From an uncultured Gammaproteobacteria bacterium (GTDB taxonomy: Bacteria; Patescibacteriota; Patescibacteriia; Patescibacteriales; UBA12465), in contig CAZIJG010000005.1 of the NCBI GenBank assembly GCA_964539545.1, positions 8,062 through 64,699 of the forward strand: 56,638 nucleotides of DNA, in the 5' to 3' direction. Below the pieces are notes generated by a model. The model made no database searches, was not told where the DNA came from, and saw only the letters and a list, made by a program, of their open reading frames with translations. Of the stretch, positions 7,454-54,411 are shown in pieces (the first letter of the stretch is position 1; each line of letters starts with the position of its first letter). The translations under genes were made by a program, and so were the position numbers.

Positions 7454-7572
7454 AATATGATTATGAAAAATTCGATTTGAAAGTGCCGAATTTTATATTA
7501 TATCTACTATATATAATAGAATAATTGTTTATTTTTAGCAAAAATTTTACAAGCTATCACCTACAAGAAAAA

Positions 7573-7623
7573 TTATTTAATATAACCCTTCAATTATCTA
7601 TTGAATAGAGTTATATTAAATAA
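7573..7623. promoter_or_regulatory. Nested perfect palindrome in the divergent DUF167 / dcd control region (possible operator or structured RNA)
   Basis: ttatttaatataac (7573-7586) is the exact reverse complement of gttatattaaataa (7610-7623). The 23-nt spacer holds a second inverted repeat, ttcaat (7589-7594) / attgaa (7600-7605). Confidence 0.35.
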
Positions 7624-7664
7624 TGCCTCAAAACTGCCTAACTAGATGGCTTTTTTTTATTTGG

Positions 7665-7693
7665 TTGAAAAACTTCCTCCTATTTGTTAAGAT
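7665..7693 (+). promoter_or_regulatory. Putative promoter for the dcd operon
   Basis: TTGAAA (7665-7670), 17-nt spacer, TAAGAT (7688-7693), about 44 nt upstream of the dcd ATG. Confidence 0.35.
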
Positions 7694-7736
7694 AAAACAA
7701 ACTAACTAAACGCCTCTGGGGCGCTTTTTAAACTCT

Positions 7737-8300
7737 ATGGTATTATCAGATAAAGATATAAAAAAAGAGATAAAACAAGGCAATATCACTATATCCCCTT
7801 TTAAAGAAGAATTTGTACAGCCGGCCAGTGTTGATCTCCATTTAGACAAAGAATTTTTATTATTCAATACAGTAGATAATTTTGTAATTGACGTCAAAGA
7901 AAAAACTGACAAGTTAATGACAGAAAAAACTATTACGGAAGATCAGCCTTTCATTTTACAACCGCAACAATTCGCTCTGGGATTAATCCTAGAAGAAACC
8001 GGTGTATCTGAAAAATTAGTCGGTCGTTTAGAAGGAAAAAGTTCATTAGGTAGATTGGGATTAATTATCCACACCACAGCTGGCTATTTAGATCCGGGCA
8101 ATTCCCTAAAGATGACCTTGGAATTATTTAACGCCGGCCCATTACCTATTAAGCTATACTCTGGTATGAAAATTGGTCAAATGGCCTTTGAATATCTATC
8201 TTCTCCCTGCGAAAAACCCTATGGCTCCGATGGCTTAAATAGTAAATACTATAAAGATCAAAAGCCACAAGCTTCACAAATGTATAAAAACTTTAAATAG
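7737..8300 (+). CDS. dcd: dCTP deaminase (possibly a bifunctional dCTP deaminase/dUTPase type)
   Basis: LSDKDIKKEI..GNITISPF....VQPASVDLHL......GRLEGKSSLGRLGLIIHTTAGYLDPG..., 187 aa. This is the Dcd/Dut trimeric-fold signature. Confidence 0.9.
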   Translation: MVLSDKDIKKEIKQGNITISPFKEEFVQPASVDLHLDKEFLLFNTVDNFVIDVKEKTDKLMTEKTITEDQPFILQPQQFALGLILEETGVSEKLVGRLEGKSSLGRLGLIIHTTAGYLDPGNSLKMTLELFNAGPLPIKLYSGMKIGQMAFEYLSSPCEKPYGSDGLNSKYYKDQKPQASQMYKNFK

Positions 8301-15332: not shown

Positions 15333-17102
15333 TTATTCTAAAACTTCTTCTACCTCCAATGATAAGCTATATAATTGATACAAAGACAACTCATCACTAA
15401 TCTCAGAAATAAATTTAATCTTTAGGCCAACCTCGGGCAACTTTCTATCATTTAAATATTCTAAATCTTTTTCTGGAAAAGTAAAATTAAAATAATATAA
15501 CGGAAAGTATGGAGTAACCCGTTCATAATAATAATTCATGTTTTTATCAGTCAACAATCCATTAATAACCTTTCTTTCTGGAAATAATAACTTATCGTGA
15601 TACTGAGTAACAATCACTGAATTATATTCGGTTAACTCTAAAACTTGTTCTATATTCTCACGATCTTTTTGAAACTTCCCATAGGTGTAATATAAACCTT
15701 CTTCTGAGCCAAAAACTAAGAAATAAAAAGATAGCAGATAAACAATCATTAAAACCATAGCAATAATAGAATTTTTTCCCAAACGTGCCCAATAATCTTT
15801 TAACGGTATTGCAGCTTTAGCCAAACGATCCAGAAAAATAGCCATCAATGGTATAGCCCCCAAGTACATGGGCAACCAATACCTAGTATATGAATTACCA
15901 ATCGTAAAGCTATTAGGATTAGGATTATCGGTAAACTTCCAACTACCATAATACAACACTAGTGCTGTCGATAAAGCTAACCAAGATATAATATATAAAA
16001 AATAACGCTTAGGCCAACGCCTAATATTAAATAAAAGTATAAAAAATCCTAACACCGCTGGCCAAAATAACCAATAAAACATATCAGCAAAATAATAGTA
16101 CAACATTTTAAAAGATTGCCAGGGCTTAAAACCAAAATAGAAAACTGTGTCTGAAATAGTGTTCCAAGCTTGATTCAAACTTTCTTTTTGATTAGACAGA
16201 GCTGAATTAATAAAATCTCCTCCAGCCTGACTAATTTGTACCAAAGAACGATTCATTTCACTATAACCTCCCTGGAGAGGAGACCCATAGATTACCTGAT
16301 TAGCAAACAACATTGGGAAAATCGCTATATAGAGACCAGCCAAAAATAATAATATTTTAGTGATACTGATACGATGTACATAAAATATCCACATCAGGAA
16401 TAATAATGGCAATAGCCATAACAATTCGGAAGTTCTAGTTATAACAGCTAAACCAAGAGAAATTCCGGCTAAAAAAGCAGCTAAGACAGAAAACCAATAC
16501 CTTCTGCCTTGTTTCCATTCAAAAAAGCCCCTAGTTCGCACGCCTTTCTTTCTAGCAATAAAAGTGGAAAAATATAAAAAGATAATTAGGAATACCAAAA
16601 ACAAAACGTTATGGAACATGCTTCTAGCTGAATAATAAATGTATACAGGAAAAGAAAATAATATTAGAGTGGACAGAAAAGCAATCCTTTTATTAAATAT
16701 TCTCTTAATAAATGAAAAAAAGAATATTAGCCCTAATGAAGCAAAAATTGGCGTTAAATAAGGTAAAATACCCGTTCCAAATACCTTAGCTAAAGAGCCA
16801 TACATCATAATCATGCCTAAAAAGCTAAGTGGTTTTAACCAGGGACCATCACTTAAAAAACTTCTTGGCTTCATTAAACCGGCTGTATATAGGTTATATT
16901 CCTCTTCTATCTGTAAACTATCAGTTTGAGCTAATGTTTTACTAAAGACATAATTAGCATTTTCGTCTGGTGATCCCCACTTTATATAATCGGGACTCTG
17001 AGCTATAAAATTGTAACTAGCTGAGACAAAGAAAAAAACAACGGCTAGAAAAATAACCGCTATTAATTGCCAATTATTGCTAAGAAATCTCTTTATTTTC
17101 AT
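15333..17102 (-). CDS. Polytopic membrane protein, GT-C fold glycosyltransferase-like (ArnT/PMT, GT39-like)
   Basis: 589 aa with more than 10 predicted TM helices and a soluble C-terminal ~120 aa. The early extracytoplasmic loop (SPDENANYVF) and overall layout resemble GT39/ArnT-type enzymes common in CPR. Family assignment was not verified by search. Confidence 0.55.
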   Translation of the reverse strand: MKIKRFLSNNWQLIAVIFLAVVFFFVSASYNFIAQSPDYIKWGSPDENANYVFSKTLAQTDSLQIEEEYNLYTAGLMKPRSFLSDGPWLKPLSFLGMIMMYGSLAKVFGTGILPYLTPIFASLGLIFFFSFIKRIFNKRIAFLSTLILFSFPVYIYYSARSMFHNVLFLVFLIIFLYFSTFIARKKGVRTRGFFEWKQGRRYWFSVLAAFLAGISLGLAVITRTSELLWLLPLLFLMWIFYVHRISITKILLFLAGLYIAIFPMLFANQVIYGSPLQGGYSEMNRSLVQISQAGGDFINSALSNQKESLNQAWNTISDTVFYFGFKPWQSFKMLYYYFADMFYWLFWPAVLGFFILLFNIRRWPKRYFLYIISWLALSTALVLYYGSWKFTDNPNPNSFTIGNSYTRYWLPMYLGAIPLMAIFLDRLAKAAIPLKDYWARLGKNSIIAMVLMIVYLLSFYFLVFGSEEGLYYTYGKFQKDRENIEQVLELTEYNSVIVTQYHDKLLFPERKVINGLLTDKNMNYYYERVTPYFPLYYFNFTFPEKDLEYLNDRKLPEVGLKIKFISEISDELSLYQLYSLSLEVEEVLE

Positions 17103-17179: not shown

Positions 17180-19051
17180 ATGAATAAACTAGCCGAAAGA
17201 ATCTTCTATTTATCCCTAAGTACCCTAACTTTCTTAATAATTTGGGGAGCTTTAATTTATTGGACATTCTCTTTTAACCTGGCCGGAAAAATAGCCATTG
17301 TTTTATTAACCATTATTTCTACAGTCATACTATTCAAGAAAATAAACAAAAACTTTGGCTCAACTGAAAAACAGTCTCAATCTAATAACTACTTAGTATC
17401 TGCTATTTGGTTATTATTTTTTATAGGAGCTGTATTCTTTCTCTTCCGAGCTCAAAGCAGTCAAGCTTTAATTTCCCCTTGGGAACAAGTTAATTCTTGG
17501 TTCTTCTTAATATACGGGGGCTTAACTCTATTAACAGTTCATCTGACTTATAACAGAACTAAATTATCACAATTAATCACCTCCTTATTCTATTTATTAT
17601 CATTTTCTGTAGCTTTAATTGTTTATAAAATCGGTTATGGTTTTGACCCTTTTATACATCAGGCCACTGCTCAAATTATTGATCAACTAGGCCAAATTCA
17701 ACCTAAACCTTTTTATTATATCGGCCAATACAGTCTAATAATTATATTCAATAATATTCTAGGTATTTCCATAGAAATGCTTGATAAATTGCTCGTACCT
17801 GTTCTAGCCGCAATATTCTTACCGATAAGTTTTAGGTTATTCTGGCAGCGATACTTTCCTCAAGATCGCGCTCTAACTATAACCACATTATTATTATTAC
17901 TACCCTTCTCTATATTCATAATCACTACTCCTCAGAACCTCGCTTTTCTACTATTAATCATCTCTTTATTTTTAAACCTAACTCTCCGGTCCAAATATCT
18001 TCTACTAAGCTCTCTGATTTCATTAGCAACACTTTTTGTGCATCCTATAGCCGGAATACCAGCTATTCTAATAACTATGGCTGGTTGGCTATACAGTCGA
18101 CGAAATAAACTAAATCCCAAATTAACTAAACTATCTTTTACGGGTATATTTCTTGCAGCTGTAATAGCTCTACCAGCAGCCTTTCTAATGTTAAACAAAG
18201 ATGGCCTTAATTGGGGTAATTTTAATCTTAATATATTTTCTTCTCTTAGCTGGGCCTATCAAGAAAGTCTATGGTTAAATTTCAACTACTTCTACAATTT
18301 CAATATTAGTTTGATTATTCTTGGCTTAATAATAACTGGTATTTTTCTTTGGCGTTATCACTACAAAACTCCAAAAATATTTATTCTACCATTACTATTC
18401 TCTCTAGCCTTTTTCATATCCTACCTGCTAAGCCAATTACTAAGTTTTGCTTTCTTAATTGATTATGAAAGAGACTATTATCGTCAGAGAATTTTAGTCT
18501 TATCTATAATCATGTCACTTCCTTTTATTGCTCTCACTTTTAAATATCTACTATCTAAAATACAAAAACAAAAAATCATTTGGCTAATTCTAATCTCATT
18601 AATTATTACTGCCTCTCTATATAATAGTTATCCTCGCTATGACCATTACTTTAACTCTCATGGCTATTCTTTATCTCAACAAGATGCTGATACTGTAGAA
18701 TTTATACAGTCAATTGCTGAAGATAATAATTACCTGGTGCTATCTAACCAGCAGGTTAGCGTAGCCGCTCTTAGAGAATTTGGGTTTAGTCGTTATTTAG
18801 CGAATGATCTATACTTTTATCCCATTCCTACTAGCGGACCACTTTATAAATACTACTTGCAGATGGTCTACGAATATCCTAATCAAAAAACTATGCAGAA
18901 GGCTATGACTCTAGCACAGGTTGATACTGGCTATTTAGTAATTAACAAATACTGGTGGGCAGCAAAAAAGATTATTGATGAAGCTAAATTAGAAGCTAAT
19001 GATTATTATAAATTATTTAATGGAGAGGTATTCGTTTTTATATATAAATAG
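17180..19051 (+). CDS. Large polytopic membrane protein of unknown function (GT-C-like architecture)
   Basis: 623 aa with about 13 hydrophobic helices followed by a ~150-aa soluble C-terminal domain. It is divergent from the GT39-like gene. Confidence 0.5.
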   Translation: MNKLAERIFYLSLSTLTFLIIWGALIYWTFSFNLAGKIAIVLLTIISTVILFKKINKNFGSTEKQSQSNNYLVSAIWLLFFIGAVFFLFRAQSSQALISPWEQVNSWFFLIYGGLTLLTVHLTYNRTKLSQLITSLFYLLSFSVALIVYKIGYGFDPFIHQATAQIIDQLGQIQPKPFYYIGQYSLIIIFNNILGISIEMLDKLLVPVLAAIFLPISFRLFWQRYFPQDRALTITTLLLLLPFSIFIITTPQNLAFLLLIISLFLNLTLRSKYLLLSSLISLATLFVHPIAGIPAILITMAGWLYSRRNKLNPKLTKLSFTGIFLAAVIALPAAFLMLNKDGLNWGNFNLNIFSSLSWAYQESLWLNFNYFYNFNISLIILGLIITGIFLWRYHYKTPKIFILPLLFSLAFFISYLLSQLLSFAFLIDYERDYYRQRILVLSIIMSLPFIALTFKYLLSKIQKQKIIWLILISLIITASLYNSYPRYDHYFNSHGYSLSQQDADTVEFIQSIAEDNNYLVLSNQQVSVAALREFGFSRYLANDLYFYPIPTSGPLYKYYLQMVYEYPNQKTMQKAMTLAQVDTGYLVINKYWWAAKKIIDEAKLEANDYYKLFNGEVFVFIYK

Positions 19052-46163: not shown

Positions 46164-48218
46164 TTACTGAACGTACTTTTTAAGTAACGCTTCATCAACC
46201 AAGTAAGGTAAAGTGATTTGTTGCACAGGATGCTTAACATTCCACTTTTCAGCGGTTTCAATAGCATTTAGGTTTCTAGCCCAGGCCCGACGAGCAACAC
46301 CGCCCATCACGTCCCAACTTAAACCCATTGTTACTACTTCATCAGCATGATGCGAACCATTCAGCAAGATTCCATAACCTCCGTTAGATGCCCTGCTAAC
46401 GCCCACACCGCCACCATTGGACAGCACAACCATGGTCATTCCACGAGCTGCATTACCAAGAGCGCACTGTATCGACATGTCAGCAGTCGTTCGGCTACCA
46501 TCTTTAATATCGGAAGTTTCGCGATAAGGGGAATCTGTCCCTGATGCATCATGGTGATCTCTACCCATCATAATCGGACCAATCTCTCCCTGTCGTACAG
46601 CCTCATTAAATCGCAAAGCAATGGCTATTCGACCTTCTTCATCAGAATACAAAATTCTAGCCTGAGTGCCCATGACCAAATCATTAGAACCAGCCTCTTT
46701 AATCCAACGATAATTATCACGATACATATCCCCCAAAGAAGGATCTATACATTCCATGGCAATTTTATCAGTTATCTTCAAATCTTCCTTCTTACCACTC
46801 AAGCATACCCAGCGAAATGGACCAAAACCTTTATCAAAACATAATGGACCCATAATGTCCTGAACATAGGATGGCCAAATAAAGCCTTCTGAAATGTCTT
46901 TACCATTTTTAGCAATCTCAGTTACATCAGCCTCGAACACTGATGCCATAAAAGTATTTCCGTAGTCCCAGAAAAAAGAGCCCTTATCAGTTAACCTCTT
47001 GATGACTTTAAAGTGTTTTTCCAGGGATTCATCTACCAATTTAGCAAATTCTTTACCCTTGCCACTATTAAGCATTTCTCTACCCTTTTCATAGGTAAGA
47101 CTAACGGGGGTGTAACCTCCTTCATGCACTACGTGGCAACTGGTCTGATCACTAATTAATTCCACTGGAACATCTTTTTCATCAATATGCCATAATAGGT
47201 CTACTATATTACCATGATAGGCAATGGAAATTGGCTCTTTTTTCTTTTTATAATAGCCTATCCACGCTTCTATTTGAGACAAGCTATCGGAAACTTTATC
47301 TACCCAGCCTTTTTTCTCAATCTCATCAATCCTGCCTTTATCCACCTCAGCAATAACAGCAACTCCACCAGCCATTTTCACAGCTTTAGGTTGAGCTCCT
47401 GACATACCGCCAAGACCTGAGGAAACGAAGCAAACACCACGAAGATCTTTGTCATCAGGAATACCTAAATACTTTTTCCCAGCGTTCAGAACAGTAATAA
47501 AAGTACCATGCACAATACCCTGGGAACCGATATACATCCAACCGCCAGCGGTCATCTGGCCATAATTAGTAACTCCGAGCGCGGCTAACCTGTTAAAGTC
47601 GTCTTTATTATCCCATTGACCAACCATTAGGCCGTTAGTAGCAATTACCCGTGGCGCAAAGGCGTGTGATGGGAAAAGACCTACAGGGTGACCAGAGCTC
47701 ACTACCAGAGTTTGATCATCTCCTAGATTTTCCAAGTACTTCATAATCAAACGATACTGTAACCAGTTTTGGCATACCTGACCAGATTCGCCATAGGTAA
47801 CAAGTTCATAAGGATACAGCGCTGTTTCAAAGTCTAGATTATTATTAATCATCACTTGAATCGCCTTACCAGTCATGGTACCGCGATAATCATTAATGGA
47901 ACCGCCCTTAATTCTTCCTACTGGACGAAAACGAAGAGCATAAATACGACCATAAGTTTTTAATTCCTCTAAAAATTCAGGAATTAATGTTTCATGATGT
48001 TTTGCAGGAATGTAACGAAAAATATTAGCTAAAGCTAATCTAATTTCTTTGTTACTTAGAGGAACTTTTAAATTCCTTTTAGGAGCGTGTCTTTTATCCA
48101 GATCAACGCCTGGATTAGAAGGTAAAACATCCATATCTAAATGGATAGTCATTTCGTCATTAGAATCAATCATGTCTACATTTATTTGGTTGTTATTATT
48201 ATTTAAAGAACTATACAA
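46164..48218 (-). CDS. hutU: Urocanate hydratase, long form (start uncertain: TTG 48218 or ATG 48173)
   Basis: ...VTYGESGQVCQNW......TNYGQMTAGGWMYIGSQGIVHGTF......GLGGMSGAQPKA......HVVHEGGYTP......RDHHDASGTDSPYRETS... are urocanase NAD-binding and active-site blocks. An Asn-rich N-terminal extension is present. Confidence 0.88.
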   Translation of the reverse strand: MYSSLNNNNNQINVDMIDSNDEMTIHLDMDVLPSNPGVDLDKRHAPKRNLKVPLSNKEIRLALANIFRYIPAKHHETLIPEFLEELKTYGRIYALRFRPVGRIKGGSINDYRGTMTGKAIQVMINNNLDFETALYPYELVTYGESGQVCQNWLQYRLIMKYLENLGDDQTLVVSSGHPVGLFPSHAFAPRVIATNGLMVGQWDNKDDFNRLAALGVTNYGQMTAGGWMYIGSQGIVHGTFITVLNAGKKYLGIPDDKDLRGVCFVSSGLGGMSGAQPKAVKMAGGVAVIAEVDKGRIDEIEKKGWVDKVSDSLSQIEAWIGYYKKKKEPISIAYHGNIVDLLWHIDEKDVPVELISDQTSCHVVHEGGYTPVSLTYEKGREMLNSGKGKEFAKLVDESLEKHFKVIKRLTDKGSFFWDYGNTFMASVFEADVTEIAKNGKDISEGFIWPSYVQDIMGPLCFDKGFGPFRWVCLSGKKEDLKITDKIAMECIDPSLGDMYRDNYRWIKEAGSNDLVMGTQARILYSDEEGRIAIALRFNEAVRQGEIGPIMMGRDHHDASGTDSPYRETSDIKDGSRTTADMSIQCALGNAARGMTMVVLSNGGGVGVSRASNGGYGILLNGSHHADEVVTMGLSWDVMGGVARRAWARNLNAIETAEKWNVKHPVQQITLPYLVDEALLKKYVQ

Positions 48219-48296: not shown

Positions 48297-48875
48297 TTAT
48301 TCAACTTTTTCATAGGAGAGCGTATTACCCCGGGGTAAATAACTCATTATCAAACGATGATTGGTTAGAGTTAAAATCTTATACAACATCTCTTCATCTT
48401 CTTCAAAAATGGTTAAATCTGGTCCATCTAGATAATATTCAACGCTACTCACTTCTTCGTCATTATAATAATCTATTTTAATTTTATTATTAAACTCTAT
48501 AACGGATTTTTCATCATTCACTGAAGCCCAGGTACCACGAACTGTATAAACATTGTATTCATTAATTAATAATTCAATCTCTAAATCACCTGGAGACTCT
48601 ACAGCTTTAGCTCGGCCACTATCATTAAAGGCCTGTTCTTCAACAGAAATCTGTTCTCCCACATCCTCTTTATCATCTCCGTTGTCCTGGGGGTCTGTTT
48701 CTAAAACAATTGTATCTTCTGCGATACCAATGTTGTTAAACTCAATCGAACCTAGCCCTTCGCCGTTAACCTGATGATCCGAATTAATTTCTGATATTCT
48801 ATCATTATCTATGATTCTGTAGGCAAAAAATACTAATAATAACGCTATAATGATAATAAATAATATTTTTTTCAT
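48297..48875 (-). CDS. Exported protein with an acidic linker and a lipocalin-like C-terminal domain
   Basis: N-terminal signal/anchor (KKILFIIIIALLLVFFAY). The C-terminal YTVRGTWASVND...IEFNN......YYLDGPDLTIFE......YKILTLTNHRLIMSY resembles the lipocalin-like (Lipocalin_4) pattern. From memory, not searched. Confidence 0.45.
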   Translation of the reverse strand: MKKILFIIIIALLLVFFAYRIIDNDRISEINSDHQVNGEGLGSIEFNNIGIAEDTIVLETDPQDNGDDKEDVGEQISVEEQAFNDSGRAKAVESPGDLEIELLINEYNVYTVRGTWASVNDEKSVIEFNNKIKIDYYNDEEVSSVEYYLDGPDLTIFEEDEEMLYKILTLTNHRLIMSYLPRGNTLSYEKVE

Positions 48876-48963: not shown

Positions 48964-50844
48964 TTAAACTCTTTTTATCACTTTTACTAAACCTTTATCT
49001 GCATAGACTTCTACTTCGTCTCCATCTTTTAGAACTTTAGTAGCATTCCTGGTGGCAATCACACAGGGGGTGTTGGTTTCTCTGGCTACAATAGCAGCAT
49101 GGGAAGTTACTCCTCCCTGGTCAGTAACAAAGGCCGCAGCTTTTTTCATGGCTGGCAGAAGGTCTGGCTGGGTAGAGATAGAAACTAAAATATCTCCTTC
49201 TTTCATTTTTTGCATATCAGCCATAACATTTACTATCTTTACTATACCCTTGGCTCGCCCTCGACAACCACATTGGCCATTTAGTTCGGATACCTCCTCA
49301 TGATCATCTGTTTCAATATATTTTTCAACAATTTTTTGAGCCTGATCTCCACTATAATATACTTCAGTATCTTTAGCAGTATAATATAGACTATATTTTA
49401 CTCTCTTTTTTATTTCATCCTTGTCTAACGTTTTATTAAATAGAGCATTTTTGATTTCGCTAGAGGTCATAAATCTAACCTCTTTCAGCGATAGACCAAT
49501 GCGTTCAGATATTTCAGTTAATAAAAAGGTGGTTTTGTACAAAGCAAACAGTTGAGCAGAACGACGATAAATCTTAGTGACCATGAAATCTCCCCAAGCA
49601 TCAAAAAATCTAATTAAGTTCTTAGATAATTTCAATTCTTTTATTAATTGTTTCTTTCTAGTCTGAATATTCTCCAACTCTTGTTCTTGTCTTTTGAACG
49701 AAGCATCTAAATCACTATCACCAGACACTAGCCTAACTAAAGTCTTTAAATAGTGTTCAAAACTATATACCCCTTGCTCTTCGGTGTAGATAAATTTAGT
49801 AAAGAAATATTTAGTATAGTGATTTTGAAGATCATTTAATATATCAGCATCAATTTTGTCTGTTAAACTTCTAACTATTGCTTCAAATTTTTCCTCATAG
49901 ACTAGGCTATGGGTATACAGGCCTAAGTATTTGACATCTTCTTCTTTGAATTTTCTAAACAATTCCTTGAACAGTTCATACTGCTGTTTATTCTTTTGCA
50001 CTTTAATACCAATCTTCATTAAATTATCATCCTCTTGTTTAATCAATGATTCTTCAATCGGCTGAGTAACAATTGGTAAATATTCTTCTATCTTAGATTG
50101 AGGAACTTTTAAGTCTTTCAAAATCTCCTTACCTTTGTTGGTTAAATTATTATGGAACATGTCAGCCGCTGCCGGAATCCACCCCCATTGATAATATTCA
50201 AAGTGAACATCTTCATGGACCTGATAGAGGGCCCAAAGATCTTTCACAGATAGCCTATGTAAATTTGATTCAGGAATTTTATCTACAGTCTCTATTAACT
50301 TATCTCCCCAATATCTAATTTTATCATTCACTTCTTCCATAAACTCAGGCTTCTTGAAAAATTTATTAATTAAATTTTCAGCTACTTCGAATGAATCTTG
50401 TTTATCAAAATAAAATTTTAAATAGTACCCCTTATACATAGAAGCTAGATGTTTGTAAGTTCTGCCACTAGGATTTTGAAACTGGTTAGTAAAACAATAA
50501 AATGGCAGGGTCATAAACCAAGGATTGGCATTAACTATTTCTTCGCCTAATAACCACTCTCTATCAAATCTACCTTTAATCTCTGACTGTTGCTGTTTTT
50601 TAAAAATTGCCACTAAATCATCCATGTAATCGCAGCTCAGATTTAAATGAAAGTATTTCTTATTTTTCTTAATTTCCATAGTCACAATTCCTTCTTTCAC
50701 TAAACTATCTATTTCCCGAGAAACATTAGCTGTGTCTTTAGACAAAGACTTAGATATCTCAGTTAAATAAAAATCTTTCTGTTTATTATTAATAAACAGC
50801 TCAATAATGTCATAGGATGTTTGTGATTTAAACAGTTTTTTCAT
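48964..50844 (-). CDS. Winged-helix DNA-binding domain + uncharacterised helical region + PEP-utilizer mobile (phosphohistidine swivel) domain protein
   Basis: N-terminus YDIIELFINNKQKDFYLTEISKSLSKDTANVSREIDSLVKEGIV (wHTH, MarR/ArsR-like). C-terminus GDILVSISTQPDLLPAMKKAAAFVTDQGGVTSHAAIVARETNTPCVIA...DGDEVEVYADKGLV (PEP_mobile signature with catalytic His). Confidence 0.75.
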   Translation of the reverse strand: MKKLFKSQTSYDIIELFINNKQKDFYLTEISKSLSKDTANVSREIDSLVKEGIVTMEIKKNKKYFHLNLSCDYMDDLVAIFKKQQQSEIKGRFDREWLLGEEIVNANPWFMTLPFYCFTNQFQNPSGRTYKHLASMYKGYYLKFYFDKQDSFEVAENLINKFFKKPEFMEEVNDKIRYWGDKLIETVDKIPESNLHRLSVKDLWALYQVHEDVHFEYYQWGWIPAAADMFHNNLTNKGKEILKDLKVPQSKIEEYLPIVTQPIEESLIKQEDDNLMKIGIKVQKNKQQYELFKELFRKFKEEDVKYLGLYTHSLVYEEKFEAIVRSLTDKIDADILNDLQNHYTKYFFTKFIYTEEQGVYSFEHYLKTLVRLVSGDSDLDASFKRQEQELENIQTRKKQLIKELKLSKNLIRFFDAWGDFMVTKIYRRSAQLFALYKTTFLLTEISERIGLSLKEVRFMTSSEIKNALFNKTLDKDEIKKRVKYSLYYTAKDTEVYYSGDQAQKIVEKYIETDDHEEVSELNGQCGCRGRAKGIVKIVNVMADMQKMKEGDILVSISTQPDLLPAMKKAAAFVTDQGGVTSHAAIVARETNTPCVIATRNATKVLKDGDEVEVYADKGLVKVIKRV

Positions 50845-50882
50845 ATATTTGTTTTATAAGCTAATTACTTTGTTTACTAGAC

Positions 50883-50911
50883 ATCATATGTACTTTTCAT
50901 CTATTTGTCAA
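50883..50911 (-). promoter_or_regulatory. Putative promoter of the wHTH-swivel gene
   Basis: Minus strand: TTGACA (50911-50906), 17-nt spacer, TATGAT (50888-50883), about 38 nt upstream of the ATG. Confidence 0.45.
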
Positions 50912-50912
50912 T

Positions 50913-50943
50913 AAAAAAACCGTTGTCTACTCTCAACAACGGT
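50913..50943 (-). terminator. Terminator ending the 494aa / phosphatase / 354aa operon
   Basis: aaaaaaACCGTTGTctactctcaACAACGGT: 8-bp perfect stem. On the minus strand it is followed by a T7 run. Confidence 0.65.
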
Positions 50944-50954
50944 TGTAATAAAAA

Positions 50955-52019
50955 CTATTTTATTATCCTAATAATTCCATGATCTGCATCTACTTCCACC
51001 ATATCACCATTTTGCAACACTTTAGTAGCCACCTCTAGACCAACTATACAGGGTTTTTGCAATTCCCTGGCTGTAATAGCCGCATGACATAGCATGCCGC
51101 CAGCATCAGTGATAAAAGCTGCTGACTTTTCAACTAAAGACAGATATTCTGGTCGTGTCATTTCGGTTACCAAGATATCCCCTTTATTAAATTTATTCTT
51201 TTTTTGAGTATCAAGAATCACCCTAGCCGTTCCCCTAACAAACCCTGGATAAGCAGTGGTGCCATTAATAATCTTTTTATTTAATAAACTACTATTTAAA
51301 TCCGTTTCTATGTTTCCGACTTCCTTGCCTGTTACTATTCGACAATTTCCCCCTTTAGTAAATAAGACTGCTGAAGAATCAAAGCGATCTTGTAAAATTT
51401 TAATTGATGGGGCTTTTCCTGTCTTCAAAAATTCTGGAAATTCATCCTTGGTCATACATAAAATTAATTCTGCAGCGATACCCACTTGTTTACTTAATTG
51501 CTTAGAAAATTTTCTCATAAACTTCTCTGTTTCAGCATAAACCGGTTCGGCATAAAGTCTGGCCTCTGTTAATTTTGGTAATAATTCTTGCAGATCTTTT
51601 TCTGGTAAAAAATTGACACTCACTTTAATGGCGCGATGAGAAGATTCATATCCAAAGAACATCTCCAAAAAACTATTGTAATCATCAACTGTTATTTTTG
51701 ATTTATTATATTTATTAATTAAACTTAATATGTCATCTGTTTCCTTCTTCATGTCTTTACACCAATCTAAAGCCACTTTATGATCATTCATAACCTTAAT
51801 AGCTAATTGTTCACCGAACTTATGATAATCATCCTGTTCCAAAGAACAAACGCTTAATCCTTTACGAAAAATAAATATAGAAACATCCAGGGAGCTACCC
51901 AGTGTTTCTTCGAGTGTTTTAGTATATTGATAACCGATATAGGTACAGGTTAAAATGCTCCATTTTCCTGCCCAATGTTTTAACCAAGTATATTTTTCTG
52001 GATGTTGTATTTTATTCAT
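50955..52019 (-). CDS. PEP-utilizer mobile (swivel) domain protein with a short uncharacterised N-terminal region
   Basis: C-terminus GDILVTEMTRPEYLSLVEKSAAFITDAGGMLCHAAITARELQKPCIVG...NGDMVEVDADHGII. The N-terminal 250 aa show no ATP-grasp or TIM-barrel motifs. Confidence 0.75.
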   Translation of the reverse strand: MNKIQHPEKYTWLKHWAGKWSILTCTYIGYQYTKTLEETLGSSLDVSIFIFRKGLSVCSLEQDDYHKFGEQLAIKVMNDHKVALDWCKDMKKETDDILSLINKYNKSKITVDDYNSFLEMFFGYESSHRAIKVSVNFLPEKDLQELLPKLTEARLYAEPVYAETEKFMRKFSKQLSKQVGIAAELILCMTKDEFPEFLKTGKAPSIKILQDRFDSSAVLFTKGGNCRIVTGKEVGNIETDLNSSLLNKKIINGTTAYPGFVRGTARVILDTQKKNKFNKGDILVTEMTRPEYLSLVEKSAAFITDAGGMLCHAAITARELQKPCIVGLEVATKVLQNGDMVEVDADHGIIRIIK

Positions 52020-52027
52020 ATTATTAT

Positions 52028-52915
52028 TTATTTACATTTTTCATCTAATTTTTTTCTATCATTCATAATATTTTGTAAAATATTAATATCTACTTCTAAG
52101 GTCTTTTCTTCTTCGTCTAATTCATAATAAATTTTTATTTTCTGTTCAACTCCTTTATTTATTATTTCAACTCTTATTCCCTCCAACTCTTTAAAACAAT
52201 GACCAACTTTTTCTAAAAAATTATCTCTAGCTGCTTTTCCTAAAGTCTTTTCGATGAGCTTAGCTAAAAATGACTCAACCACTGTCCCATGACTGCCTAA
52301 ATATCTTTCAAGTTGATTGCCAGTTTTTTTATAGTCATCTTTTTTGCTAGCTAATCTATTAAAATTATTACCTATTTTCATGTATCTATCCACTATTTCT
52401 GCTAAGTTTCCTGCTTGCCTAGAATAAGTCGTACTAATCTGATCTTTACCGTCAATAGCCATCTGATCACTATCTTTTACATACTTCAACATAAATTGAG
52501 GATTATTAGCAAACTCTGCTTTTAAAGCATCTCCGACTGGTCCGCTATAGGTAAAATTCAATCTATCATCTTCAATAACTCTTTTCCCCACCTTCATATT
52601 ATTCTTCATTTTATCTTCCATTTCTTCTAAAGTATCTATTTCTCCAATTTCAGCTTCATTAGCTAACATTACGTGTGCCGAAGTTTCCTGGGTTCTTTTC
52701 TGTGGACCACCCCAAGCTAATGATACCTCTGGTTGAGAATTTATTTTTTTACCTTTTTCATGAGCTTCACGTTTTCCTACTTCTGATAACATTAATTCGC
52801 TACTGGACTTATTGGGATCAACTTCTTTTATACCGTGCCTAAAAAAATCTAAAAAAATCTTTGTCTCTAAATTTTTCTCTTTTTCTTGATTGCTATCTTG
52901 TTCAAATTTAAACAT
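52028..52915 (-). CDS. Histidine phosphatase superfamily (PGAM-like) protein
   Basis: FLDFFRHGIKE (RHG catalytic motif) and ...RYLGSHGTVVESFL (second His motif). 295 aa. It is 8 and 11 nt from the flanking swivel genes. Confidence 0.6.
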   Translation of the reverse strand: MFKFEQDSNQEKEKNLETKIFLDFFRHGIKEVDPNKSSSELMLSEVGKREAHEKGKKINSQPEVSLAWGGPQKRTQETSAHVMLANEAEIGEIDTLEEMEDKMKNNMKVGKRVIEDDRLNFTYSGPVGDALKAEFANNPQFMLKYVKDSDQMAIDGKDQISTTYSRQAGNLAEIVDRYMKIGNNFNRLASKKDDYKKTGNQLERYLGSHGTVVESFLAKLIEKTLGKAARDNFLEKVGHCFKELEGIRVEIINKGVEQKIKIYYELDEEEKTLEVDINILQNIMNDRKKLDEKCK

Positions 52916-52926
52916 ATATTTATATA

Positions 52927-54411
52927 TTATTTTATTATTTTAACTGTCCCTAGGCTCGCGTCTATTTCTACCATATCACCGTCCTTTAATGCTTTGGTAG
53001 CTATTTTAGTTCCTACCACACATGGAGTTTTTAATTCTCTAGCGGTAATTGCAGCATGACAGGTTAAGCCTCCTGAATTAGTAATAAAGGCACTAGCCTT
53101 CTTCATCGCTGATAACAATGAAGGATCCGTAATATTTGAAACTAATACTTCACCTTTTTCCAACTTACCCATTTCACTAGCCTGATTAATAACTTTTACT
53201 CTAGCTTTTACTTTACCTGGCCAGGCACATTCACCCTGAAAGAAGTCCTTAAACTTTTCTACAACTAAACACTGTTTAGCTACGGCCACTATATTTCTAG
53301 CCTGCTCACCTATTAACAACTTATTTACTTGTCCATCATAGTATTGAATTGAATACTTCAAACTACGATTTATTTTAGTAAGATTAAATTTATCTTCCCT
53401 AAGAGACTTAATTAACTCTGGCAGAGACAAAGCATATAGTTGCTTCATGGATAAATGATTGTCTTTAGCTACTTTCCTTAATATTGGCCAAACTGCGCTA
53501 TAGCTCATATACAAAGCATCCATGCGATGAGCTTTGATGAATAAAACTTCCTCTAATAGTCTAAATAATTTCTGGTACTCAGGTGCAATATCTAATTGTT
53601 TAATATATTTATTCTTGGTTTCAATCAATTTGTCCTGTTTGGCAAATGATTTCTCTAATTTTTTAATCGCCACTTCATTTCCCACTAAACCTTGAAAGTG
53701 ACCAGCAAAAAAATCGTAATCTAAATCCGGACCGATCCAACCGAAGGCTAGCCATTTATATTTTTCATAATGAGCCACTAATCCTTTCTTGTCATTATAC
53801 TTAGCCAAGGCTAACAGATCAATTTCCTCCTTCTGAGCCATAGATAATTCTCTTGGCAAAGTTAAAACTTGAAAAACTTCTAGTAGTCTTTTAGCATCCA
53901 GGCCTTTTTTCTTTAAATAACTCCTCAAATAGTCTGTAAGAAAAAAATTCTCCATTTCTAAAACATTCGTCACTTGCCCCAATGACCAAGTGCTGTGATG
54001 AAATTTATGATACTCCTGTAGCAAAGTAATAATTTTCTCTTTCTTCAGACTATCTACTCTAAGACTCCTAGCTTGATGGTTAAAGGTAATCAAGCCATCG
54101 GCAGCCTTTCTAATTCGATTTAATAATGTCTCTAATCTTTTGGGATCTTTTAAAATCGTTGTTAAATAACTCTGCCCTAGATTATCCCACTCTGACCTGG
54201 ACATATAGCAACGTAAAATATGTTCATCCTGTTCAAATATTAATTGACTCAAGCCTTTGCCCACTTCTTTCTTAATTGCCAAGGTCATTCCATGCACAAA
54301 ACTAGAGTGAATCCAGTATACGTGATACCACTCCCCAAATAAAAAATAATCTTTTATTTTTCTTGCTTGCTTAATCTGATCCATAAATTTATTATTCCCT
54401 ATAAACTGCAA
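52927..54411 (-). CDS. PEP-utilizer mobile (swivel) domain protein with an uncharacterised ~390-aa helical N-terminal region
   Basis: C-terminus GEVLVSNITDPSLLSAMKKASAFITNSGGLTCHAAITARELKTPCVVG...DGDMVEIDASLGTV. The ORF track starts at TTG 54411, but ATG 54384 (MDQIKQ) is an alternative. Confidence 0.75.
   Translation of the reverse strand: MQFIGNNKFMDQIKQARKIKDYFLFGEWYHVYWIHSSFVHGMTLAIKKEVGKGLSQLIFEQDEHILRCYMSRSEWDNLGQSYLTTILKDPKRLETLLNRIRKAADGLITFNHQARSLRVDSLKKEKIITLLQEYHKFHHSTWSLGQVTNVLEMENFFLTDYLRSYLKKKGLDAKRLLEVFQVLTLPRELSMAQKEEIDLLALAKYNDKKGLVAHYEKYKWLAFGWIGPDLDYDFFAGHFQGLVGNEVAIKKLEKSFAKQDKLIETKNKYIKQLDIAPEYQKLFRLLEEVLFIKAHRMDALYMSYSAVWPILRKVAKDNHLSMKQLYALSLPELIKSLREDKFNLTKINRSLKYSIQYYDGQVNKLLIGEQARNIVAVAKQCLVVEKFKDFFQGECAWPGKVKARVKVINQASEMGKLEKGEVLVSNITDPSLLSAMKKASAFITNSGGLTCHAAITARELKTPCVVGTKIATKALKDGDMVEIDASLGTVKIIK

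What the first reader, a model, noticed from the sequence alone, without database searches (positions are those of the whole stretch)
48964..54411. Cluster of three paralogous orphan phosphohistidine-swivel proteins plus a histidine-phosphatase-fold protein: candidate novel phosphotransfer module
Three ORFs (494, 354 and 626 aa) each end in a ~90-aa domain with the PEP-utilizer mobile-domain signature. The signatures read GG(L/M/V)T(C/S)HAAI(T/V)ARE(L/T)..PC(V/I)(V/I) ... DGD.VE(I/V).A..G, and the catalytic phospho-accepting His is conserved in all three. In known enzymes (PpsA, PPDK, PTS enzyme I, rifampin phosphotransferase) this domain shuttles phosphate between an ATP-grasp domain and a second catalytic domain. 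I can find neither an ATP-grasp (no GGK-type loop) nor a PEP/pyruvate TIM-barrel in any of the three. Their N-terminal regions are instead mutually similar helical segments that I do not recognise. Terminators and promoter-like elements suggest one operon (494aa, 11 nt, RHG phosphatase, 8 nt, 354aa; terminator at 50913-50943). The wHTH-fused paralog then follows as its own unit. The amplification of a bare swivel domain and its tight coupling to a phosphatase fold suggest a self-contained relay or modification system with unknown donor and acceptor.
Basis: partly seen in the sequence, partly recalled or inferred. Interest (0 to 1): 0.78.

Follow-up and report, generated by a model that had tools for sequence, protein, structure and literature searches.

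The report
Split rifampin-phosphotransferase-like kinase gene array
Three neighbouring genes of a candidate-phyla-radiation bacterium encode the substrate-binding and phosphate-carrying half of a split ATP-dependent kinase related to rifampin phosphotransferase; related genomes hold up to ten such genes with one shared ATP-binding gene and a phosphatase, and their substrates are unknown.

Summary
Three minus-strand genes (485/494, 354 and 626 aa) end in a PEP-utilizers swivel domain with the catalytic His. A 295-aa histidine-phosphatase-superfamily gene lies between the first two, and none has an ATP-grasp or a PEP/pyruvate barrel. They are not bare swivel domains, however. AlphaFold models of two of them match only rifampin phosphotransferase (RPH) over their whole length, so the N-terminal helical region is an RPH-type substrate-binding domain. 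This is the architecture of the HpeH/CreH/PpsA component of known two-component dikinases. Related Patescibacteria loci carry arrays of 3-10 such paralogs on one strand, and ten distinct loci also have a single stand-alone ATP-grasp (PPDK_N) gene. Seven distinct loci, the window included, carry an orthologue of the 295-aa phosphatase. Each window paralog, including the wHTH fusion, has its own orthologue class. The likely phosphate donor is therefore ATP, acting through a separately encoded ATP-grasp subunit, which is absent from this window. The unusual features are one ATP-grasp gene serving many substrate modules, the conserved phosphatase, and a family of about 1,900 sequence clusters with no characterised member. 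I found no prior description. Substrates remain unknown.

The parts
52927..54411 (-). Paralog 1 ('a' class), 485 aa from ATG 54384 (494 aa from TTG 54411). RPH-type substrate-binding domain, about residues 1-375 (53260-54384). Swivel phosphohistidine domain, about residues 385-485 (52930-53232). Catalytic His443 at 53056-53058.
   Evidence: ORF. PF00391 E 2e-23. AF2 pLDDT 93.5, pTM 0.91. Foldseek RPH-Lm 5fbu/5fbt/5hv1 E 9e-14 to 3e-12, TMq 0.51-0.58. 32 homologs at 38-64% identity in Patescibacteria.
52028..52915 (-). Divergent histidine-phosphatase-superfamily (branch 1) protein, 295 aa. R26-H27-G28 at 52832-52840, R74 at 52694-52696, H209 at 52289-52291. Separated from the genes on either side by gaps of 11 and 8 nt.
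   Evidence: Pfam His_Phos_1 E 5.6e-5. 18 of 20 family members match, best E 4.7e-11. Invariant R26/H27/R74/H209. PDB 3eoz putative phosphoglycerate mutase E 3e-6. Orthologues sit inside the swivel arrays of L008, L009, L010, L021, L022 and L023.
50955..52019 (-). Paralog 2 ('c' class, short), 354 aa. Same substrate-binding domain with an internal deletion of about 130 residues (about residues 1-243, 51291-52019). Swivel domain, about residues 250-354 (50958-51272). Catalytic His312 at 51084-51086.
   Evidence: PF00391 E 3.9e-24. hhalign vs the 485-aa family: probability 100%, E 2e-52. AF2 pLDDT 88.1. Foldseek RPH-Lm E 4e-14 over 269-353 columns. NCBIfam alignment of residues 134-354 to positions 598-820/827 of an RPH-like model.
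50918..50944 (-). Intrinsic-terminator-like hairpin (10-bp stem, T-run) ending the three-gene operon.
   Evidence: sequence read.
50883..50911 (-). Promoter-like site TTGACA-17-TATGAT (11 of 12 matches) ahead of the 626-aa gene.
   Evidence: the best-scoring site in the region. This is a consensus match only.
48964..50844 (-). Paralog 3 ('b' class fused to wHTH), 626 aa. wHTH, about residues 1-90 (50575-50844). Substrate-binding domain, about residues 95-515 (49300-50562). Swivel domain, about residues 520-626 (48967-49287). Catalytic His582 at 49099-49101.
   Evidence: PF00391 E 4e-24 and weak wHTH families. PADLOC wHTH E 3.5e-10. The 626-aa orthologues in L008 and L009 are 61% identical over the full length, wHTH included. 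The N-domain is 32-40% identical to unfused 'b' class paralogs.

Best explanation
The three genes encode the substrate-binding-plus-swivel components of a split (two-component) ATP-dependent small-molecule dikinase of the rifampin-phosphotransferase superfamily. They are equivalent to HpeH, CreH and phenylphosphate synthase PpsA. Proposed mechanism: a separately encoded ATP-grasp (PPDK_N) subunit binds ATP and phosphorylates the conserved swivel His (ATP -> AMP + Pi + His~P). The swivel domain then returns to its own N-terminal helical domain and passes the phosphate to a hydroxyl-bearing small molecule bound there. Each paralog class has a different pocket and therefore a different substrate, while all keep a similar swivel domain that can dock on one shared ATP-grasp protein. 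The co-operonic histidine-phosphatase-fold enzyme acts downstream, either hydrolysing (or rearranging) a phosphorylated product or resetting His~P. The wHTH-fused paralog, on its own promoter, probably also binds DNA and may regulate the locus. Shown here: domain identities, folds, catalytic residues, operon layout, conserved co-localisation with the phosphatase and, in related loci, with PPDK_N. Inferred: the phosphotransfer itself, sharing of one ATP-grasp subunit, the small-molecule nature of the substrates, and the roles of the phosphatase and the wHTH. The ATP-grasp gene of this organism is not in the window.
For: Fold. Two high-confidence models (pLDDT 93.5 and 88.1) match RPH-Lm alone over more than the swivel domain (E 9e-14 and 4e-14). 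PPDK, PpsA, EI and pyruvate kinase match only the swivel, with TMq about 0.19-0.28. Sequence. Profile alignments run colinearly from the C-terminal part of the RPH rifampin-binding domain into the swivel domain (profile positions 311-480 to RPH 701-865; NCBIfam RPH-like models). Precedent. HpeHI is a characterised two-component dikinase in which HpeH carries the RIF-binding-like and swivel domains and HpeI is the ATP-grasp; mutating the His abolishes activity (PMC12167813). Partner. Stand-alone PPDK_N genes of 312-404 aa lie in or at the end of the arrays in L001/L015, L005/L011, L008, L009, L020, L021 and L022. They are complete ATP-grasp modules (E about 1e-100 to PpsA 1-339 and about 1e-80 to RPH 1-313). 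Sharing. There are 3-10 paralogs per locus and never more than one PPDK_N. Swivel domains are 51-56% identical between paralogs against 23-24% for the N-domains. The catalytic His is kept in 83 of 83 complete paralogs. Maintenance. Each window paralog has its own orthologue class in other genomes at 30-61% identity. The N-domain family has 1,893 clusters at 50% identity with E <= 1e-3. Phosphatase. Catalytic residues are invariant and it is embedded in the arrays of six other loci.
Against: No PPDK_N gene or remnant is present in the 56.6-kb window or in the 2.4 kb beyond it. L010 and L023 also show none in the visible flanks. The partner is therefore assumed to lie elsewhere in this genome. 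The N-domains do not align by sequence with the HpeH/PpsA-type NCBIfam models (PRK08296) outside the swivel domain, so this is a separate clade. No substrate, expression or biochemical data exist. The 354-aa class lacks about 130 residues of the substrate-binding domain and may not bind a substrate in the same way.
Confidence: 0.68

Rival explanations
1. ATP-grasp-independent phosphotransferase or relay. In genomes like this one the paralogs work without any ATP-grasp. They take phosphate from a phosphorylated small molecule onto the swivel His and pass it to another acceptor (transphosphorylation), with the phosphatase setting the direction. This is the closest surviving version of the first reader's 'self-contained module'.
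For: No PPDK_N in the window, L007, L010 or the visible part of L023. HpeH alone catalyses phosphotransfer from 4-phosphoacetophenone to acetovanillone (PMC12167813). The phosphatase gene is separated from the two paralog genes by only 11 and 8 nt.
Against: Ten distinct related loci do carry a PPDK_N gene in the array. The window covers only about half of a 108-kb contig of an incomplete genome. The strong conservation of the swivel domain across paralogs fits a common docking partner.
Confidence: 0.12
2. Ligand-sensing or regulatory proteins, not metabolic kinases. The RPH-like domain senses a small molecule, and the His~P state (set by the ATP-grasp, erased by the phosphatase) controls DNA binding by the wHTH-fused members or other targets. 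The array would then be a signalling system.
For: Two conserved classes of wHTH-fused paralogs exist (626 aa and 604-617 aa). The 626-aa gene has its own promoter-like site. From general knowledge, not tested here: the histidine-phosphatase superfamily includes the phosphohistidine phosphatase SixA.
Against: Most paralogs (7-10 per locus) have no output domain. All characterised relatives (RPH, HpeHI, CreHI, PpsAB, PigC/HapC) phosphorylate small molecules. Nothing suggests partner response proteins.
Confidence: 0.1
3. Fragments or pseudogenes of a decayed ppsA/PPDK or rph gene, with no function of their own.
For: Sequence hits to PpsA are restricted to the swivel segment. Some related loci contain split or frameshifted copies (347 aa + 179 aa in L003/L014).
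Against: All three ORFs are intact, and each has its own complete swivel domain and catalytic His. Orthologues of each class are conserved at 30-61% identity across genera. The family has 1,893 clusters with consistent lengths of 480-520 and about 600 aa. No PPDK_N or TIM-barrel remnants are present in the window.
Confidence: 0.02

Closest known systems
Two-component small-molecule dikinases: HpeHI (Rhodococcus), CreHI (Corynebacterium), phenylphosphate synthase PpsAB (Thauera/Aromatoleum)
   Same: The enzyme is split in the same way. One polypeptide carries an RPH-type substrate-binding domain followed by the swivel phosphohistidine domain, and the ATP-grasp is a separate protein of about 310-400 aa encoded nearby (seen here in related loci). 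The conserved His lies in a GG..H motif.
   Different: The known systems are 1:1 pairs in aromatic-catabolism clusters of free-living Actinobacteria and Proteobacteria. Here 3-10 diverged substrate modules accompany at most one ATP-grasp gene in Patescibacteria, with a conserved histidine-phosphatase-fold gene and wHTH-fused members. The N-domains match the PpsA-like NCBIfam models (PRK08296) only in the swivel domain. The window itself has no ATP-grasp gene. No carboxylase or other aromatic-catabolism genes are nearby.
Rifampin phosphotransferase (RPH-Lm; PDB 5FBS/5FBT/5FBU, 5HV1) and other single-chain relatives (PigC/RedH/HapC prodiginine ligases, PRK06241-type 'PEP synthases')
   Same: This is the only solved structure that matches the whole protein. 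The order is the same, with the helical substrate-binding domain followed by the C-terminal swivel domain, and sequence homology extends beyond the swivel domain.
   Different: RPH has the ATP-grasp fused at its N-terminus (residues 1-314), and these proteins lack it. Identity is only 16-24%. The substrate-binding domain is smaller (about 375 or about 245 residues against about 440). Nothing indicates that rifamycins are the substrate.
PEP synthase (PpsA) / pyruvate phosphate dikinase / PTS enzyme I
   Same: The swivel phosphohistidine domain is homologous (up to about 50% identity to archaeal PpsA) and carries the same catalytic motif GGxT(C/S)HAA.
   Different: There is no PEP/pyruvate TIM-barrel domain, no fused ATP-grasp and no EI HPr-binding domain. 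[quoted passage not shown]
Histidine phosphatase superfamily branch 1 (dPGM, PhoE, phosphoserine phosphatase PspA, SixA)
   Same: The 295-aa protein has the RHG motif, a second Arg and a second His, all invariant in its family, and matches Pfam His_Phos_1.
   Different: It is about 100 residues longer than typical members. Only the N-terminal third aligns by sequence to solved structures. Its fixed position inside swivel-protein arrays is not a known context for this superfamily.

Membership tests
PEP-utilising enzyme mobile (swivel phosphohistidine) domain, PF00391 | Match to the Pfam model above the gathering score | tested here: met
   82-85 bits vs 23.1 in all three proteins, covering the full 72-position model.
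PEP-utilising enzyme mobile (swivel phosphohistidine) domain, PF00391 | Phospho-accepting His in the GGxx(C/S)HAA loop | tested here: met
   H443, H312 and H582. The His is kept in 83 of 83 complete paralogs of related loci.
RPH-family single-chain small-molecule dikinase | N-terminal ATP-grasp (PPDK_N) domain in the same polypeptide | tested here: not met
   No PPDK_N hit at E <= 0.1. The models are helical N-terminally. The PPDK_N HMM and tblastn find nothing in the window.
RPH-family single-chain small-molecule dikinase | Central rifampin-binding-domain fold preceding the swivel domain | tested here: met
   Foldseek E 9e-14 (TMq 0.55-0.58) and E 4e-14 to 5fbu/5fbt. Colinear profile alignment to RPH 701-865.
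RPH-family single-chain small-molecule dikinase | Second-site catalytic residues equivalent to Arg666/Glu667/Lys670 of RPH-Lm | tested here: inconclusive
   The 485-aa family has an invariant K284-x-H286-R287-M288-D289 motif about 20-30 residues N-terminal of where the sequence alignment to RPH begins. No residue-level superposition was possible, and the motif lies in the segment deleted in the 354-aa class.
Two-component dikinases (HpeHI/CreHI/PpsAB type) | Substrate-binding plus swivel component without an ATP-grasp | tested here: met
   Architecture shown. It matches the description of HpeH in PMC12167813.
Two-component dikinases (HpeHI/CreHI/PpsAB type) | Separately encoded ATP-grasp component in the same gene cluster | tested here: not met
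   Absent from the window and from L007. Present in ten distinct related loci. The rest of this genome could not be examined.
Two-component dikinases (HpeHI/CreHI/PpsAB type) | Sequence membership of the substrate-binding domain in the PpsA/HpeH clade (NCBIfam PRK08296 models) | tested here: not met
   PRK08296 alignments cover only the swivel domain (for example residues 391-494 to 504-607/608) and score far below the cut-offs.
Two-component dikinases (HpeHI/CreHI/PpsAB type) | ATP-dependent phosphorylation of a small molecule through His~P, yielding AMP + Pi | not testable with these tools
   Requires biochemistry.
PEP synthase / PPDK / PTS enzyme I | C-terminal PEP/pyruvate-binding TIM barrel (PEP-utilizers_C) | tested here: not met
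   No such Pfam hit. The proteins end with the swivel domain. NCBIfam PpsA/PPDK/EI alignments are limited to the swivel segment.
Histidine phosphatase superfamily, branch 1 (the 295-aa protein) | RHG motif, second Arg and second catalytic His, plus a Pfam match | tested here: met
   R26-H27-G28, R74 and H209 are invariant in 38 and in 20 homologs. PF00300 scores 23.3 bits vs 21.7 for the window protein, and 18 of 20 family members match. Fold not modelled.

The most novel reading that the evidence does not exclude
Patescibacteria with very small genomes run a 'one engine, many adaptors' phosphorylation system. A single ATP-grasp subunit charges the swivel His of up to ten diverged RPH-like substrate modules, some fused to DNA-binding domains and some fused in tandem. 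A dedicated histidine-phosphatase-fold enzyme completes the system. Together they would form a previously unrecognised multi-substrate phosphorylation/dephosphorylation pathway, for scavenging or detoxifying host-derived or environmental small molecules, and may replace conventional kinases these organisms lack. In reduced loci such as this window, the modules may even work without the ATP-grasp as phosphate-exchange enzymes.
Probability: 0.3. Interest if true: 0.8.

Novelty: new variant of a known kind. Interest (0 to 1): 0.55.

Why it matters
Split RPH-like dikinases were recognised as a subfamily only in 2025, and all known examples are 1:1 pairs acting on phenolic compounds. This locus and its relatives suggest a large uncharacterised branch: about 1,900 clusters at 50% identity, no Pfam model for the substrate-binding domain, and members annotated as hypothetical. 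In this branch one ATP-grasp gene accompanies many substrate modules. In bacteria with very small genomes such an array occupies up to about 15 kb, which implies an important function. Identifying the substrates could reveal how these episymbionts process scavenged metabolites or resist antibiotics and toxins. It could also supply a set of related kinases with different specificities for biocatalysis. For annotation, these genes should not be called 'phosphoenolpyruvate synthase'.

Tried and rejected
1. I searched the window for a fused or separate ATP-grasp with Pfam on 27 ORFs, tblastn with two array PPDK_N proteins and a PPDK_N HMM on all ORFs of at least 90 aa. Nothing was found. The same organism's Logan contig (L007), which reaches 2.4 kb past the window end, also has none.
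2. Decayed ppsA fragments: rejected, because the ORFs are intact, each has a complete swivel domain, and each has a conserved orthologue class.
3. Anti-phage defence system: PADLOC matched only the wHTH of the 626-aa protein, so nothing supports a defence role.
4. T4SS link: a TrwB/VirD4-like gene precedes the arrays in all Magasanikbacteria loci. It is absent from the window and from L008, L009, L010 and L019, so it is lineage synteny and not part of the module.
5. The 192-aa ORF downstream (48297-48875) has no homolog in any related locus and was dropped from the module.
6. Mapping RPH Arg666/Glu667/Lys670 onto the models was not possible without coordinates, and sequence alignment stops at RPH residue 701.
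7. Literature searches for prior descriptions in CPR/Patescibacteria found only a resistome survey that mentions generic rph-like hits.
8. Rfam and tRNA scans of the window found nothing.

Full report
OBSERVATION. For the first gene, the database gene call and the homolog alignments favour ATG at 54384, giving 485 aa. All three large proteins end in a full-length Pfam PEP-utilizers (PF00391) domain at E 2e-23 to 4e-24. The phospho-accepting His is present in GGLTCHAA, GGMLCHAA and GGVTSHAA. The 295-aa protein has RHG and scores just above the His_Phos_1 threshold. Its family makes the assignment firmer: 18 of 20 members match His_Phos_1, and R26, H27, R74 and H209 are invariant. The gaps of 11 and 8 nt are correct. 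A terminator-like hairpin lies at 50944-50918, and the best promoter-like site of the region (50911-50883) follows it. This supports a three-gene operon followed by a separately transcribed 626-aa gene. None of the three has a PPDK_N or PEP-utilizers_C domain.

THE N-TERMINAL REGIONS. They are not unrecognisable. NCBIfam alignments to RPH-like and PRK06241-type models already ran well upstream of the swivel domain. Residues 134-354 of the 354-aa protein align to positions 598-820/827, and residues 392-622 of the 626-aa protein to 640-867/868. An AlphaFold2 model of the 485-aa protein, built on 31 homologs, has pLDDT 93.5 and pTM 0.91. Against the PDB, its only whole-length matches are the Listeria rifampin phosphotransferase structures (5fbu, 5fbt, 5hv1; E 9e-14 to 3e-12; TMq 0.51-0.58). 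PPDK, pyruvate kinase and enzyme I match only the swivel domain, at TMq about 0.19. The 354-aa model (pLDDT 88.1) gives the same result, E 4e-14 over 269-353 columns. A profile of the 485-aa family aligns to RPH-Lm residues 701-865. The swivel domain begins at residue 767, so the match reaches into the rifampin-binding domain. The three window proteins share this domain. W494 against W626 gives BLAST E 1.7e-7. The 354-aa family aligns end to end with the 485-aa family at hhalign probability 100%, E 2e-52, with an internal deletion of about 130 residues. The 626-aa protein adds an N-terminal wHTH. Each protein is therefore an RPH-type substrate-binding domain followed by a swivel domain, that is, RPH without its ATP-grasp.

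THE MISSING ATP-GRASP. The window has no PPDK_N at all. This was tested with Pfam on 27 ORFs, with tblastn and with an HMM. The 2.4 kb beyond the window on a second contig of the same organism has none either. Related loci do have one. Homologs of the 485-aa protein (38-64% identity, all from Patescibacteria where named) and of the phosphatase (38-53% identity) lie in tandem same-strand arrays of swivel paralogs. There are 5 in L001/L015, 6 in L005/L011, 7 in L009, 8 in L014, 9 in L017 and L018, and 10 in L012. A single stand-alone PPDK_N gene of 312-404 aa lies in or at the end of the array in L001/L015, L005/L011, L008, L009, L020, L021 and L022. These proteins are complete ATP-grasp modules. 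They match PpsA residues 1-339 at E about 1e-100 and RPH 1-313 at about 1e-80, and they match the PDB entries 8a8e, 5hv6 and the stand-alone 9goj chain. Where no PPDK_N was seen, the array usually ran to the end of the fetched stretch. The exceptions are the window and L010, where both ends of the array are visible, and possibly L023.

CLOSEST PRECEDENT. The closest precedent is the two-component dikinase HpeHI, with its homologs CreHI and phenylphosphate synthase PpsAB. HpeI is an ATP-grasp protein. HpeH carries the RIF-binding-like and swivel domains. Substituting the swivel His abolishes kinase activity. HpeH alone can move phosphate between substrates (PMC12167813). RPH itself works by swinging the His domain between the ATP-grasp and the rifampin site, where Arg666, Glu667 and Lys670 act (PMC4844700).

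MOST LIKELY MECHANISM. An ATP-grasp subunit encoded elsewhere charges the swivel His of each paralog. The swivel domain then delivers the phosphate to a small molecule held by that paralog's own N-terminal domain. Three results support one shared partner with different substrates. First, there is never more than one PPDK_N per locus, against 3-10 paralogs. Second, swivel domains are 51-56% identical between paralogs of one locus, against 23-24% for the N-domains. Third, the catalytic His is kept in all 83 complete paralogs examined. The paralog classes are old and maintained. The window's 485-aa, 626-aa and 354-aa proteins each have their own orthologues elsewhere, at 41-45%, 57-61% and 30% identity respectively. 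The wHTH fusion itself is conserved in L008 and L009, and a second wHTH-fused class of 604-617 aa exists. The window's three-gene set is the smallest array seen.

THE PHOSPHATASE. It is a real part of the module. Its orthologues lie inside the arrays of L008, L009, L010, L021, L022 and L023. A shorter His_Phos_1 gene, a second divergent copy or a HAD hydrolase accompanies some arrays. Its role is inferred only. It may hydrolyse or rearrange a phosphorylated product, as dephosphorylation follows phosphorylation in the Hpe pathway. It may instead remove phosphate from the swivel His.

FAMILY SIZE AND PRIOR KNOWLEDGE. An exhaustive HMM search with the N-domain profile found 1,893 clusters at 50% identity with E <= 1e-3, 806 with E <= 1e-10 and 92 with E <= 1e-30. 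Nearly all are 480-520 aa, or about 600 aa for the wHTH type. A few are tandem fusions of 2-4 units. Pfam has no model for this domain, and source names are 'hypothetical protein' or 'phosphohistidine swiveling domain-containing protein'. Reference-genome hits are Ca. Magasanikbacteria, Kerfeldbacteria and Parcubacteria. Full-text searches found no description of these arrays. One CPR resistome survey mentions generic rph-like hits.

MEMBERSHIP. The proteins work like the HpeH-type component and share the RPH fold. They fail the RPH requirement of a fused ATP-grasp. They fail sequence membership in the PpsA/HpeH clade, because PRK08296 models match only the swivel domain. In this window they also lack the adjacent ATP-grasp gene. 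I therefore file them as a new variant of the two-component dikinase kind, not as members of any named family.

RIVALS. Three rivals were considered. The first is an ATP-grasp-independent phosphate-exchange module (probability about 0.12). It is kept open by the absence of PPDK_N here and in L010, and by HpeH's transphosphorylation activity. The second is a signalling or regulatory role centred on the wHTH fusions (about 0.10). The third is decayed ppsA fragments (about 0.02), which the evidence effectively excludes.

VERDICT. The proteins are not bare swivel domains, however. The donor is most probably ATP through a trans-acting ATP-grasp, and the module is a reduced copy of a lineage-wide array. 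Interest is moderate to high, because the one-to-many architecture and the size of this uncharacterised family in minimal genomes are unexpected, and the substrates are unknown.

Noticed in passing
L001 5777-7951; L003 4468-6420; L005 2301-3989; also L012, L013, L016, L017, L018, L020: A highly conserved TrwB/VirD4-type coupling-protein gene (62-90% identity between loci) lies just upstream of the swivel array in every Ca. Magasanikbacteria locus. L008 has PrgI- and TraC-like genes just downstream of its array. None of these is present in the window.
   Followed up: partly
Proteins P0083, P0084, P0088, P0089, P0094, P0097, P0120: Some family members are 950-2,309 aa long and consist of 2-4 complete tandem units of N-domain plus swivel, most with a catalytic-His motif per unit. 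They may be real fusions, or gene calls that read through stop codons in lineages with an alternative genetic code.
   Followed up: partly
L003/L014: 6469-7512 plus 7458-7997 (L003 coordinates): One array member is split into a 347-aa N-domain ORF and an overlapping 179-aa swivel ORF. This could be a frameshift, a pseudogene or a sequencing error.
   Followed up: no
window 46164-48218 (-): A full urocanase (HutU) gene with an N-terminal extension of about 110 residues lies two genes downstream of the array. Its stretch has 40% G+C against about 32-34% around it, which suggests horizontal acquisition. No other hut genes were noted.
   Followed up: no
window 15333-17102 (-) and 17180-19051 (+): Two large ORFs (589 and 623 aa) have no Pfam match at E <= 1e-3.
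   Followed up: no
window 48297-48875 (-): A 192-aa ORF with a hydrophobic N-terminal segment (probably secreted or membrane-anchored) lies directly downstream of the 626-aa gene. It has no homolog in any of the related loci and no family match.
   Followed up: partly
L008 3723-4625; L009 15716-16582; L008 3054-3680; L022 2935-3582; L001 15198-15827: Further phosphatase-type genes accompany some arrays: a second, very divergent His_Phos-like paralog (288-300 aa), HAD-family hydrolases, and a short 209-aa His_Phos_1 protein.
   Followed up: partly
L015 (CAYHBZ010000001.1) and L017 (CAYZYP010000002.1): Two MAGs titled 'uncultured Gammaproteobacteria bacterium' carry loci that are near-identical or syntenic to Ca. 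Magasanikbacteria loci. The taxonomic label is probably wrong.
   Followed up: no
window 54385-54411: The start codon of the first paralog is ambiguous. TTG at 54411 and ATG at 54384 both have purine-rich stretches upstream. Homolog alignment and the database gene call favour ATG (485 aa).
   Followed up: partly
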